DNA from: Candidatus Thorarchaeota archaeon
GTDB lineage: Archaea > Asgardarchaeota > Thorarchaeia > Thorarchaeales > Thorarchaeaceae
Assembly: GCA_016933575.1 (NCBI GenBank)
Contig: JAFGAR010000035.1
Span: forward strand, 1 to 27,490
Length of the DNA stretch: 27,490 bases
Direction: 5' to 3'
A program made the translations under genes and the position numbers. Under the pieces are notes generated by a model. It was not told where the DNA came from and made no database searches. It saw only the letters and a list, made by a program, of their open reading frames with translations. Positions 12,597 to 15,003 of this stretch are shown in pieces; positions within the stretch are counted from its first letter, which is position 1, and every line of letters starts with the position of its first letter.

Positions 12597-13091
12597 GTGT
12601 TATGCATATTGGATGAAAAAGCAGTTTCAGAGTCAAAAACTGTAATGACGCAGACAGTCTTTCCTAATGATGTCAATAACAATGGTACTCTCTATGGAGG
12701 AAGATTACTAGATTGGATAGACACACTGGGGGCAATAGTTGCAAAGAGACATAGTCGTAGTGCAGTCGTCACGGTCTCCATTGATTCTCTTAACTTTCTT
12801 GCCCCCACACGTCAAAGAGATATTGTGACCCTTGAGGCTTGGGTCAATTATGTAGGAAGAACCTCTATGGAGATTGAAGTACGAGTCAGCTCAGAGAATC
12901 CTATTACGGCTGAAACTGCTAAGAATTGTAGAGCATTTCTGACCTATGTTGCCATGGATGAGTATGGGAATCCAAAAGAAGTTCCGCCATTGAAACTGAC
13001 TTCTGAAGAGGAGAGAATCCGATTTGAGATGGCTAAGGAGAGAAGGTCAGAGCGACTTAGACATCGCGATCTTGGTGCTGTTGAGTGGTAA
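12597..13091 (+). CDS. Acyl-CoA thioesterase (hotdog fold, YciA-like); start possibly TTG 12609
   Basis: VFPNDVNNNGTLYGGRLLDWID, VTVSIDSLNFLAP, YVGRTSMEIEV and AFLTYVAMD. Confidence 0.93.
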   Translation: MLCILDEKAVSESKTVMTQTVFPNDVNNNGTLYGGRLLDWIDTLGAIVAKRHSRSAVVTVSIDSLNFLAPTRQRDIVTLEAWVNYVGRTSMEIEVRVSSENPITAETAKNCRAFLTYVAMDEYGNPKEVPPLKLTSEEERIRFEMAKERRSERLRHRDLGAVEW

Positions 13092-13775
13092 TCACCAGAG
13101 TGTCTTCTTGACCTTATCCTTTTGCTCTGAACTCAGACCTTCGAATCCCAAGAGATTCTCCTTTGGTATTCCCCAGATATCATCTGAAATGCATTCGAAG
13201 TGATGCCATCTATAGTTCAAGTGATCCATATAATAGGTAGGCTCTCCGACTCGAAGGGCATCCTTTTCGATGTTGTTCCCGCAAGTCTGACATTTGGCAC
13301 GACTGGACTTTGCCGCTTCAATCTTCCAATTATCCTTTGGAATGAACTTTCTTTTTGCAGCTGTTCCAAGATTCATCAGAAACATCTCAGGATCGTCTCC
13401 TACAAGTTCAGGCGTGAATCTTAGAGTGAATTTATCATATTCAGAAATGTCAAATGATACATCGACATTGTTGTTCTTGTAAGACTTCTTGTACTTAGCA
13501 CCTGGAGGATATTGGTTATTCTTTTTCATGAATGTAAATACTTGCTCAGTTAGAATCTTAGTCGCAGCTCGTTTATCCTCTAGATCAACAACGCCGCTTG
13601 CTTTTGCATAATGATAATCTGTATTTATGATGGACATCCCTGTATCAAGTTCTTCCTTGCGCTTCGTTAGGATGACAGAACCAACTGGTACCTTTCCTGT
13701 AATCTTTTGCATAGAGAAATTACTTGAATCAACATAATATGCCCAACTATGATTGAAAGTAACCCAATCAGTCAA
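13092..13775 (-). CDS. Protein with an unknown N-terminal domain and a C-terminal PARP-type zinc finger
   Basis: IEAAKSSRAKCQTC...IEKDALRVG...RWHHFEC...LLGFEGLSSEQKDKVKK gives C-x2-C-x26-H-x2-C with the zf-PARP flanking signatures. SD GAGGTG + 6 nt + TTG 13775; the ORF is open to GTG 13784. Confidence 0.85.
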   Translation of the reverse strand: MTDWVTFNHSWAYYVDSSNFSMQKITGKVPVGSVILTKRKEELDTGMSIINTDYHYAKASGVVDLEDKRAATKILTEQVFTFMKKNNQYPPGAKYKKSYKNNNVDVSFDISEYDKFTLRFTPELVGDDPEMFLMNLGTAAKRKFIPKDNWKIEAAKSSRAKCQTCGNNIEKDALRVGEPTYYMDHLNYRWHHFECISDDIWGIPKENLLGFEGLSSEQKDKVKKTLW

Positions 13776-13893
13776 AACATGCACCTCAAGATATCATAAT
13801 GCATTTTCCATATAAAATCTCATCTAAAATTCGAATGCACATCTCGATGCATTAAAAGGGGGTATAGACTTCATAATTGAACGGGTTGCAACA

Positions 13894-15003
13894 ATGAAGA
13901 CAATCAAGATTGGTAATGTGAAGAGTGAATCTGGCAAAATTAATTATGGATTCATAGATGCAATGGACTTGCCAACTGGAACAAAGGACAGAATCCCAGT
14001 AGTCATTGCTCAAGGGAAAAATGAAGGACCAACATTCTTTCTTACTGCGAATATTCATGGTAACGAACTAACTGGTGTTGCAGTTCTACATGAACTTGTT
14101 ACAGAAGATTTGGTTAAAGATCTGAAGGGAACTATTGTTTCAATACCAACACTCAATCCTACTGCTCTAAGATTATACCAAAGGCATCCAGAATATCAAG
14201 ATGAAGACCCTAACCGACAATTTCCAGAAGGTCCGTTCGCAAGACCAGATGAAGATGATGAAGATAAGAAATACCCAAAGCCCTTCGAACAGGTTGCAAA
14301 TCTGCTTTATTCATACTTTAAAAAATATGCAGACTATCATCTCGACATCCACAATCATTCTCTACGCTCAGTACCGTATTCAATCATAGACCGTATTTTC
14401 TATGATGGAGATGATGACAAGAAAGAAGCAGAAGAACTAGCAAAGAAACAATTGGGCATGGTGGAAGCTTTTGGAGCTGGAGCAATGATGACAGCAGATT
14501 TTCCACCAAAGAAATACCTGAATCTGAAATATCATCGTTCACTGTCAGGTGCCGTACTCAACTCGTTGAGAATACCAGCCTTTACCGTAGAATTGGGGAG
14601 CAATAGTGTTCTCTATCCTGAAATCATCGCAGGGGCTGTGAAAGCTACAAGAAACCTGCTTCGATGGGCAGGGATGCTTAATTCTCCTAAAGAGAAAATC
14701 ACTGAATATTCCGTCCCAATTCCTGAATATCGTCTTAGACGAATTGAACATCCCAGAGCAAACCAATCCGGGATAATCAAGTTATTAGTTGGACCAGGTG
14801 AAAAAGTGACTAAGGGACAAGCTATAGCAAAGATCACGGATATTCATGGAAGACCAATAGGCGAAGGCATTATCAAGACTGAGTATGATGGATACATGAT
14901 AGCACTCCGTGACCAGATGACCATCTACCCAAATATGGGCATTGCAGAGATGGGTATCAGAGATGTGGATGAGATTGTAGTGCCAATGCCTCCGAAAAAA
15001 TGA
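13894..15003 (+). CDS. Succinylglutamate desuccinylase/aspartoacylase family (M14) zinc hydrolase
   Basis: ANIHGNE (HxxE), DPNRQFP, HLDIH, FTVELG and a C-terminal barrel-sandwich segment (SGII...GEKVTKGQAIAKI). Confidence 0.9.
   Translation: MKTIKIGNVKSESGKINYGFIDAMDLPTGTKDRIPVVIAQGKNEGPTFFLTANIHGNELTGVAVLHELVTEDLVKDLKGTIVSIPTLNPTALRLYQRHPEYQDEDPNRQFPEGPFARPDEDDEDKKYPKPFEQVANLLYSYFKKYADYHLDIHNHSLRSVPYSIIDRIFYDGDDDKKEAEELAKKQLGMVEAFGAGAMMTADFPPKKYLNLKYHRSLSGAVLNSLRIPAFTVELGSNSVLYPEIIAGAVKATRNLLRWAGMLNSPKEKITEYSVPIPEYRLRRIEHPRANQSGIIKLLVGPGEKVTKGQAIAKITDIHGRPIGEGIIKTEYDGYMIALRDQMTIYPNMGIAEMGIRDVDEIVVPMPPKK

What the first reader, a model, noticed from the sequence alone, without database searches (positions are those of the whole stretch)
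13092..13775. Eukaryote-like PARP-type zinc finger on an unknown N-terminal domain
Seen: WKIEAAKSSRAKCQTCGNNIEKDALRVG...RWHHFEC...LLGFEGLSSEQKDKVKK (13328-13095), i.e. C-x2-C-x26-H-x2-C. Known: this matches the nick-sensing zinc fingers of PARP1 and DNA ligase III (EYAKSGRASC..C...I.K..LR...WYH..C...GF..L...DQ.KVKK). The domain is mostly eukaryotic, with sporadic bacterial occurrence. No PARP catalytic or ligase domain is attached, and I do not recognise the ~150-aa N-terminus. Inference: a stand-alone archaeal DNA strand-break sensor and a candidate eukaryotic signature protein relevant to the origin of PARP signalling.
Basis: partly seen in the sequence, partly recalled or inferred. Interest (0 to 1): 0.75.

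Follow-up and report, generated by a model that had tools for sequence, protein, structure and literature searches.

The report
Asgard PARP-type finger on orphan domain
A Thorarchaeota-type (Asgard) archaeon encodes a small protein with no enzyme domain that joins a genuine PARP1/ligase III-type DNA-break zinc finger to a ~150-residue domain with no known fold. It belongs to a conserved, unstudied family, but nothing links it to ADP-ribose signalling.

Summary
ORF 13092-13775(-) encodes 227 aa. Residues 153-230 score 58 bits against Pfam zf-PARP (cut-off 39.3), carry C-x2-C-x26-H-x2-C, and model onto human PARP1 Zn1 (TM 0.77-0.83). The Arg that grips the DNA backbone in PARP1 (R18) is invariant here (R162).

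The N-terminal ~150 aa folds confidently (pLDDT 86) but matches no Pfam family and no solved or predicted fold. It is a domain family of its own: 95 clusters, 43 of them followed directly by a zf-PARP finger, and one by a SWIM finger.

The two-domain architecture occurs in 42/85 genomes of the window's family and 23/31 of one Heimdall-labelled family. Two bacterial MAG copies nest inside the Thor copies. Other Heimdall-group families carry tandem fingers.

No PARP catalytic domain reaches cut-off in 400 Asgard genomes, and the window's own genome has no WGR domain.

On an 83-column tree these fingers sit with other prokaryotic fingers, apart from all eukaryotic ones (88/95).

Best reading: a non-catalytic adaptor that binds DNA breaks or unusual DNA structures. 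"Origin of PARP signalling" is not supported for this gene. This scan found the same family earlier on other DNA (e1-3705799, e1-3705800).

The parts
13092..13775 (-). Whole gene: 227 codons from TTG 13775 plus the stop codon 13092-13094.
   Evidence: ORF list and translation. The start is set by the alignment to 8 homologues that begin M-T-D/E-W, by the Atlas record that starts at residue 4 of the GTG-initiated ORF, and by the SD-like motif upstream.
13782..13787 (-). GAGGTG, a Shine-Dalgarno-like motif 6 nt upstream of the TTG start. The alternative GTG start at 13784 lies inside it.
   Evidence: Read directly from the sequence. Its function as a ribosome-binding site is inferred.
13329..13775 (-). 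N-terminal orphan domain ('NDOM', residues 4-152 of P0001). It has a beta-rich half (about residues 7-67) followed by a long helix plus a three-stranded sheet (about 71-123) and two short helices.
13095..13328 (-). zf-PARP zinc finger (residues 153-230).
   Evidence: PF00645 at 58.2 bits, E 1.4e-15. PARP1 F1 by sequence at E 2e-10. Foldseek to PARP1 Zn1 (3od8, 3oda, 4av1) at E 1e-6 to 3e-5 with TM by target 0.77-0.83, and to the ligase III finger 1uw0 at E 5.6e-3.
13191..13292 (-). Span holding the four zinc-ligand codons: C165 (13292-13290), C168 (13283-13281), H195 (13202-13200), C198 (13193-13191).
   Evidence: All four are invariant in alignments A1 and A3. They align to PARP1 C21, C24, H53 and C56.
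13299..13301 (-). R162 codon, the equivalent of PARP1 R18 (phosphate backbone grip).
   Evidence: Aligned to R18 and invariant. The role of R18 is taken from PMC8150716.
13224..13235 (-). Y184-Y185-M186-D187, the stretch aligned to PARP1 P42-M43-F44-D45 (base-stacking loop and the activation Asp).
   Evidence: HMMER alignment. The family consensus here is Y-F-Q/E-D/E-H. A base-stacking role is inferred.

Best explanation
This is a real, conserved, protein-coding gene for a two-domain protein with no enzyme domain. The C-terminal domain is a genuine PARP-type zinc finger. It most likely binds DNA without sequence specificity at discontinuities such as nicks, gaps, ends or other exposed base steps, the way PARP1 Zn1/Zn2 and the ligase III finger do: one conserved Arg grips the backbone and a hydrophobic/aromatic loop caps exposed bases. 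The N-terminal ~150-residue domain is an undescribed fold joined through a short flexible linker. It has no conserved catalytic-looking residue cluster and is acidic in most family members. It is found behind different DNA-related partners (zf-PARP, SWIM finger, RPA32-type winged helix). It therefore most likely acts as a protein-binding or ligand-binding adaptor that the finger delivers to damaged or unusual DNA. Shown here: the gene, the domain identities, the conservation, the phyletic distribution, and the absence of PARP and WGR partners. Inferred: DNA-break binding and the adaptor role of the N-domain. No partner has been identified.
For: Finger identity: Pfam 58 bits, PDB sequence hits to PARP1, and fold match with TM 0.77-0.83 to DNA-bound PARP1 Zn1. 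The DNA-contact Arg (PARP1 R18 = R162) and R178 (= PARP1 R34) are invariant across Thor, Heimdall-group and tandem-finger relatives; the role of R18 comes from PMC8150716. The full model has pLDDT 88 with a dip to 67 at residues 141-150, between the domains. The N-domain is a family of its own: 95 clusters, of which 39 are NDOM-finger, 4 are NDOM-NDOM-finger and 51 are NDOM without a finger. Variants carry a SWIM finger (P0166) or an RPA_C winged helix (P0183). Across 66 diverse N-domains the conserved positions are mainly hydrophobic or aromatic, plus K41, K71, K103, N104 and D117, with no His/Cys/acidic cluster. The median N-domain pI is 5.3. The family is kept in 42/85 genomes of the window's family, 19/27 of its genus and 23/31 of family f8, with clear purifying conservation at 43-61% identity over the full length. 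No enzyme partner was found: PF00644 is absent from the window's genome and below cut-off in 400 Asgard genomes, and WGR is absent from the window's genome.
Against: No DNA-binding measurement exists. The residue aligned to the PARP1 stacking residue F44 is Met or Gln/Glu in the family, with the aromatics one or two positions earlier, so the stacking loop may work differently. PARP1 needs two fingers to read a nick, and this protein has only one. Gene neighbours are not conserved between lineages (thioesterase and AstE-like here; rubrerythrin-like, HhH protein or hsp20 elsewhere), so context gives no pathway. In this particular protein the N-domain is basic (pI 8.9), unlike most relatives.
Confidence: 0.6

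Rival explanations
1. The gene is a stress- or conflict-linked accessory module. In this reading it is part of a patchily inherited, laterally moving stress-response or defence-like system, and the finger senses foreign or damaged nucleic acid rather than serving housekeeping repair.
For: Presence is patchy: 19/27 in the genus and 42/85 in the family. There are at least four deep subclades inside one archaeal family. Same-genus genomes carry different subclades at different loci. Two bacterial MAG copies nest in the Thor clade (98/87). In subclade C the gene sits in an NDOM-finger / hsp20 / NDOM-only row. In one bacterial genome a long NDOM-finger gene is followed 7 bp later by a WGR-domain gene.
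Against: There is no PADLOC hit for this protein or for the bacterial neighbours. The window's neighbours look like housekeeping genes (TrmO-like, 4HBT thioesterase, AstE/AspA-like), with no integrase, transposase or tRNA nearby. The hsp20 and WGR contexts were each seen in only a few loci.
Confidence: 0.17
2. The protein is a general DNA-binding, chromatin or transcription factor. Here the finger binds intact duplex or specific structures and the protein acts as an architectural or regulatory factor, not a break sensor.
For: PARP1 fingers also bind undamaged DNA (abstract of PMC6135609, listed). The protein is small, has a single finger and no enzyme.
Against: There is no helix-turn-helix or other sequence-reading element. 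The conserved residues are the sequence-independent backbone grip. Fusion partners in relatives (RPA_C winged helix, Ssb-like OB fold, tandem fingers) point to replication and repair.
Confidence: 0.13
3. One reading: this gene is a vertically inherited eukaryotic signature protein and a direct forerunner of the PARP1/ligase III break sensor.
For: zf-PARP is common in the Heimdall-labelled families and the Thor family of Asgard archaea and absent above cut-off from the other families sampled. Eukaryotic fingers are not nested among bacterial ones.
Against: The NDOM-linked fingers fall on the prokaryotic side of an 88/95 branch. Only the second fingers of Heimdall-group two-finger proteins sit on the eukaryotic side, and those are long branches. 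The N-domain was not seen in any named eukaryotic protein. Myxococcota carry many fingers. With 83 columns the tree cannot be rooted or resolve a donor.
Confidence: 0.1

Closest known systems
Human PARP1 zinc fingers Zn1/Zn2 (F1/F2; PDB 3od8, 3oda, 3odc, 4av1, 2n8a)
   Same: Same Pfam family. Same CCHC ligands with comparable spacing. Same fold (TM 0.77-0.83). About 32% identity. The backbone-grip Arg is conserved, and so is the C-terminal helix (...K-V-K-K-T).
   Different: There is a single finger rather than a tandem pair. Zn3, BRCT, WGR and the catalytic domain are all absent. The residue aligned to F44 is not aromatic. The finger is attached to an unrelated N-terminal domain.
DNA ligase III-alpha N-terminal zinc finger (PDB 1uw0)
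   Same: A single PARP-type finger used as a nick or break sensor on a larger protein. The fold match is E 5.6e-3 with TM by target 0.55.
   Different: No ligase domain follows. In ligase III the finger is N-terminal, whereas here it is C-terminal. Similarity is lower than to PARP1 Zn1.
Plant ZDP (polynucleotide 3'-phosphatase with 2-3 PARP-type fingers)
   Same: PARP-type fingers used without a PARP catalytic domain to target a DNA-end-processing activity. ZDP proteins were the top profile hits to the Asgard finger alignment.
   Different: ZDP carries a recognisable HAD-type phosphatase domain (PF08645). The archaeal N-domain has no recognisable enzyme signature.
Heimdall/Hodarchaeales-type tandem zf-PARP proteins (about 264-327 aa; families f10 and f11; scan notes e1-5454594, e1-5416257)
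   Same: Asgard proteins without an enzyme domain that carry PARP-type fingers.
   Different: They have two fingers and no NDOM. Their second finger groups with eukaryotic fingers, whereas the finger studied here does not.
Myxococcota/Planctomycetota two-finger zf-PARP proteins (about 175-200 aa, or C-terminal on longer ORFs)
   Same: Prokaryotic PARP-type fingers without a PARP domain. Their first fingers cluster with the Asgard fingers.
   Different: Most lack NDOM. Only L075 and L076, and metagenomic long forms such as P0172 and P0164, have NDOM, behind a 200-350-residue N-terminal extension.

Membership tests
zf-PARP (Pfam PF00645) | Profile score above the curated gathering cut-off over the whole domain | tested here: met
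   58.2 bits against a cut-off of 39.3, E 1.4e-15, profile positions 1-86 of 87. A six-frame genome search gives 60.5 bits.
zf-PARP (Pfam PF00645) | CCHC zinc ligands (C-x2-C-x(26-34)-H-x2-C) | tested here: met
   C165, C168, H195 and C198 are invariant in A1 and A3 and align to PARP1 C21/C24/H53/C56. Zinc binding itself was not measured.
zf-PARP (Pfam PF00645) | PARP1 Zn1/Zn2-like three-dimensional fold | tested here: met
   The AF2 model (pLDDT 88) matches 3od8, 3oda and 4av1 with TM by target 0.77-0.83 and rmsd 2.2-2.8 over 83-85 columns.
zf-PARP (Pfam PF00645) | Phosphate-backbone-grip arginine (PARP1 R18/R122) | tested here: met
   R162 aligns to R18 and is invariant. The role is taken from PMC8150716.
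zf-PARP (Pfam PF00645) | Hydrophobic base-stacking loop (PARP1 F44; L161/I164) | tested here: inconclusive
   The aligned residue is M186 (Q/E in relatives). Aromatic Y184/Y185 lie 1-2 positions earlier.
zf-PARP (Pfam PF00645) | Preferential binding to DNA nicks or ends | not testable with these tools
   This needs EMSA or anisotropy with purified protein.
PARP1-like poly(ADP-ribose) polymerase | ADP-ribosyltransferase catalytic domain (PF00644) in the protein or genome | tested here: not met
   The ORF ends with the finger. There is no PF00644 in the window's genome (85.5% complete), and none reaches cut-off in 400 genomes of the phylum. The control genomes also lack it, so the search has no positive control.
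PARP1-like poly(ADP-ribose) polymerase | WGR domain cooperating with the fingers | tested here: not met
   No PF05406 in the window's genome. The control rang in E. coli and D. radiodurans.
DNA ligase III-like | ATP-dependent ligase domains fused to the finger | tested here: not met
   No Pfam domain other than zf-PARP in the 227-aa protein.
Eukaryotic signature protein (Asgard plus eukaryotes, otherwise rare) | Absent or rare in bacteria and other archaea | tested here: not met
   Many Myxococcota and some Planctomycetota genomes encode zf-PARP fingers (L075-L111). The N-domain was not seen in any named eukaryotic protein.
Eukaryotic signature protein (Asgard plus eukaryotes, otherwise rare) | Sister or ancestral position to the eukaryotic fingers on a tree | tested here: inconclusive
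   NDOM fingers are separated from all 32 eukaryotic fingers by a branch with 88/95 support, but the tree has 83 columns, is unrooted, and has long branches.
Known fold for the N-domain (gelsolin-like, DNA-clamp-like, sushi-like) | Significant structural match covering most of the domain | tested here: inconclusive

The most novel reading that the evidence does not exclude
The NDOM-zf-PARP family may be a prokaryotic DNA-break signalling adaptor that works without PARP. In this reading the finger marks the lesion and the orphan domain recruits an as yet unknown effector. The Asgard pool of PARP-type fingers (this family plus the Heimdall-group tandem-finger proteins) would then be the source from which the PARP1/ligase III/ZDP break sensors of eukaryotes were assembled, before any ADP-ribosyl transferase was attached.
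Probability: 0.15. Interest if true: 0.75.

Novelty: new variant of a known kind. Interest (0 to 1): 0.5.

Why it matters
PARP-type fingers are the first responders to DNA breaks in eukaryotes. Their prokaryotic history is barely described; five full-text searches found no paper on Asgard PARP-type fingers. Three results here bear on that history. First, the finger is common in two Asgard lineages. Second, it is there without any PARP catalytic domain. Third, in this family it is welded to a conserved domain of unknown fold that also pairs with other DNA-related modules. Together these offer a tractable, small (227 aa) protein for asking what a break-sensing finger did before ADP-ribosylation was attached to it. 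They also define a new domain family worth a structure and a partner search. For this particular gene, the claim of relevance to the origin of PARP signalling is not supported by the tree.

Tried and rejected
Homodimer test: complex prediction on the N-domain homodimer gave no verdict (score 0.17, mark 0.42). It was meant to test whether two single fingers could be paired as in PARP1 F1-F2, and it says nothing either way.

Expression: no RNA holder was listed for the locus. Two metatranscriptome runs from the probable source study laid nothing on it, and neither did the contigs of the probable source run X1. This gives no information on expression.

Homologue searches: the search for homologous proteins with the finger region alone and 'longer' lengths found nothing. 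That scan is limited to two peptide patterns, so it says nothing about absence elsewhere.

N-domain fold: Foldseek PDB, VIA wide, Atlas by structure and Atlas by features all gave only weak, partial or unrelated rows. Gelsolin-like, clamp-like and sushi-like leads were considered and not adopted.

Weak sequence hits: the Pfam 'Coagulase' hit (E 0.014, below cut-off) and the PDB staphylocoagulase hits (E 0.07) on residues 43-122 were treated as noise.

Defence: PADLOC gave no hit.

P0209: the Ku-domain protein's weak N-domain repeats were not reproduced by my own N-domain HMM, and the protein could not be located on a contig. The lead was dropped.

Literature: searches for Asgard with PARP, zf-PARP, PARP-type, Hodarchaeales or Heimdallarchaeia found nothing relevant.

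Full report
**1. The observation**

ORF 13092..13784 on the minus strand encodes 230 aa from a GTG. Eight full-length homologues of 226-234 aa align from M-T-D/E-W, which corresponds to the TTG at 13775. That TTG lies 6 nt downstream of GAGGTG (13787-13782), and the ESM Atlas holds the protein from exactly that residue.

Residues 156-228 match Pfam zf-PARP (PF00645) at E 1.4e-15 and 58.2 bits, against a cut-off of 39.3. phmmer against PDB returns PARP1 F1F2 at E 2.3e-10, aligning to both Zn1 and Zn2. The ligands C165, C168, H195 and C198 give C-x2-C-x26-H-x2-C. NCBIfam has no match.

**2. Structure**

An AF2 model built from the 9-sequence family alignment has mean pLDDT 88, dipping to 67 at residues 141-150 between the two domains. 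Its C-terminal part superposes on DNA-bound human PARP1 Zn1 (3od8, 3oda, 4av1) with TM by target 0.77-0.83. It also matches Zn2, and more weakly the DNA ligase III finger 1uw0.

In the HMMER alignment, PARP1 R18 corresponds to R162 and R34 to R178. Both are invariant in the family and in a broader set of Asgard fingers. R18 is the phosphate-backbone grip, F44 the base-stacking residue, and D45 the inter-domain activation residue (PMC8150716). Here F44 aligns to M186 (Q/E in relatives), with aromatics at 184-185, and D45 aligns to D187.

**3. The N-domain**

Modelled alone (residues 4-152), the N-domain gives pLDDT 86 and pTM 0.78. It has a beta-rich first half, then a 19-residue helix packed on a three-stranded sheet, then two short helices. 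Fold searches returned nothing usable:
- Foldseek against PDB: nothing below E 0.1.
- ESM Atlas: TM at most 0.37.

A profile search of 1.84 billion representatives found 95 clusters at E<=1e-3, of which 57 were at E<=1e-10. Re-scanning them gave these architectures:
- NDOM-finger: 39 clusters.
- NDOM-NDOM-finger: 4 clusters.
- NDOM without a finger: 51 clusters, some of them fragments.

Longer forms of 411-581 aa put an unknown N-terminal extension in front of the same NDOM-finger pair. Other variants are P0183, which adds an RPA_C winged helix after the finger, and P0166, which replaces the PARP finger with a SWIM finger.

Across 66 diverse copies the conserved positions are mostly hydrophobic or aromatic, plus K41, K71, K103, N104 and D117. 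No His/Cys/acidic cluster suggests catalysis. The domain is acidic in most members (median pI 5.3) but basic in this protein (pI 8.9). I read it as a binding or adaptor module of unknown partner, not as an enzyme. This is inference.

**4. Who has it**

The window's genome is a 3.47 Mb MAG, 85.5% complete, with one zf-PARP gene. Named close relatives are Candidatus Thorarchaeota, and more distant ones are Candidatus Heimdallarchaeota, including AB_125.

Among 400 genomes of the phylum, 101 have a zf-PARP match. They are concentrated in a few families:
- f1, the window's family: 42/85, with 19/27 in its genus.
- f8: 23/31.
- f9: 3/3.
- f10: 10/12.
- f11: 20/22.
- f12: 1/2.
- The largest family sampled, f22: one sub-threshold match with internal stops in 135 genomes.
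- All other families: none.

The NDOM-finger architecture is found in the loci from f1 and f8. The f10 and f11 loci examined (L023, L028) carry two-finger proteins without NDOM.

A pattern scan of about 185,000 species genomes also returned many Myxococcota and two Planctomycetota loci. Most of these are two-finger proteins. L075 (Polyangiaceae) and L076 (Planctomycetota, on a 182-kb contig) carry NDOM-finger.

**5. Trees**

The full-length NDOM-finger tree has 61 rows and 226 columns, from a careful search.
- The f8 (Heimdall-labelled) copies form one clade (100/100) on a long branch.
- The Thor copies fall into at least four deep subclades. The window's subclade has 100/99 support.
- The two bacterial copies group together (99/68) and nest beside a Thor copy (98/87). 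This suggests transfer from Asgard archaea to bacteria, assuming the MAG bins are correct.
- Same-genus genomes carry different subclades at different loci.

The finger-only tree has 119 rows and 83 columns, with the bootstrap not fully converged.
- All 32 eukaryotic fingers (PARP1 F1 and F2, plant ZDP) lie on one side of a branch with 88/95 support.
- On the same side are three unnamed or probably eukaryotic metagenomic proteins and the second fingers of Heimdall-group two-finger proteins.
- Every NDOM-linked finger lies on the other side, with Asgard first fingers and bacterial first fingers.
- Bacterial second fingers are very divergent.

With so few columns and no root, no donor can be named. 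The finger studied here is neither nested in a bacterial clade nor the closest prokaryotic relative of the eukaryotic fingers.

**6. Context and partners**

In the window the gene is flanked by a convergent 4HBT thioesterase whose ORF abuts its stop, a TrmO-like gene beyond that, and a divergent AstE/AspA-like gene. Only the thioesterase neighbour recurs, and only in close relatives.

Other lineages have other neighbours:
- A rubrerythrin-like ORF in f8 genus g28, and an HhH protein in g24.
- In Thor subclade C, a row of NDOM-finger, hsp20 and NDOM-only genes. An earlier scan note (e1-3705800) reported this, and I verified it in L068.
- In one bacterial genome, a long NDOM-finger gene followed 7 bp later by a WGR-domain gene.

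The window's genome has no PARP catalytic domain, no WGR domain and one macrodomain gene of a widespread kind. No PF00644 match reaches cut-off in 400 Asgard genomes; the control genomes also lack it, so that search has no positive control. PADLOC gives nothing.

**7. Verdict**

The finding is a real member of a conserved, uncharacterised Asgard family: an orphan domain fused to a PARP-type finger.

The most likely function is non-catalytic recognition of DNA discontinuities by the finger, with the orphan domain acting as an adaptor (confidence about 0.6 overall, lower for the adaptor part). Rivals are a stress- or conflict-linked accessory role and a general DNA-binding role.

The domain is indeed frequent in the Asgard lineages labelled Heimdall and Thor and is used there without PARP. 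However, this gene's finger is not the one closest to eukaryotes, and bacteria have many such fingers.

The same family was reported earlier in this scan on other DNA (e1-3705799, e1-3705800). My full-text searches found no paper describing it.

Noticed in passing
L113:6001-9138 (JGI metagenome contig of 1.5 Mb; same arrangement in L114): In a bacterial genome, a 543-aa protein (unknown extension, then NDOM, then a zf-PARP finger truncated after the zinc site) is followed 7 bp later by a 499-aa WGR-domain protein. It is preceded by two same-strand genes of unknown family. Finger plus WGR recalls the PARP1 break-sensing set, but no catalytic domain is present.
   Followed up: partly
L068:3482-5215 (Thorarchaeota WORH6); same layout in L022: An NDOM-finger gene, an Hsp20 gene (PF00011, E 8e-12) and an NDOM-only gene (145-160 aa) lie in a row on one strand. 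This is a paralogous subclade of the family linked to a small heat-shock protein.
   Followed up: partly
P0183, P0166, P0091 (metagenomic proteins): Variant architectures were seen. P0183 is NDOM-NDOM-finger-RPA_C winged helix. P0166 is NDOM plus a SWIM zinc finger. P0091 is finger, Ssb-like OB fold, finger. All point to replication and repair contexts.
   Followed up: partly
L023, L028, L079, L099; families f10 and f11: Heimdall-group genomes carry two-finger zf-PARP proteins of about 264-327 aa without NDOM. Their second fingers fall on the eukaryotic side of the finger tree (long branches, weak). These proteins, not the gene studied here, are the better candidates for relatives of the PARP1 F1-F2 pair.
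   Followed up: partly
window 13713-13784: Three candidate starts exist: GTG 13784, TTG 13775 and ATG at M25 (13712). One database gene call (P0002, 206 aa) uses the ATG and cuts off 21 conserved residues. Homologues and the SD-like motif favour the TTG.
   Followed up: yes
window 12600-14900, laid against run X2: Contigs of a freshwater sediment metagenome from a different study cover parts of this locus at 95-99% identity. A close relative of this organism therefore occurs in a second habitat sample. Three of the four listed differences inside the finger gene are at third codon positions.
   Followed up: no
L020, L025, L030 versus L001, L003, L027, L029 (all genus g1): Genomes of the window's own genus carry one NDOM-finger gene each, but from two deep subclades at two different loci. 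One locus has a NosD/beta-helix neighbour and the other a 4HBT thioesterase neighbour. This suggests old paralogues with differential loss, or replacement.
   Followed up: partly
P0209 (1577 aa, ENA metagenome): A protein with a Ku70/80 beta-barrel hit (39 bits) gave five weak partial N-domain stretches in the library search. My own HMM did not reproduce them and no contig could be fetched.
   Followed up: partly
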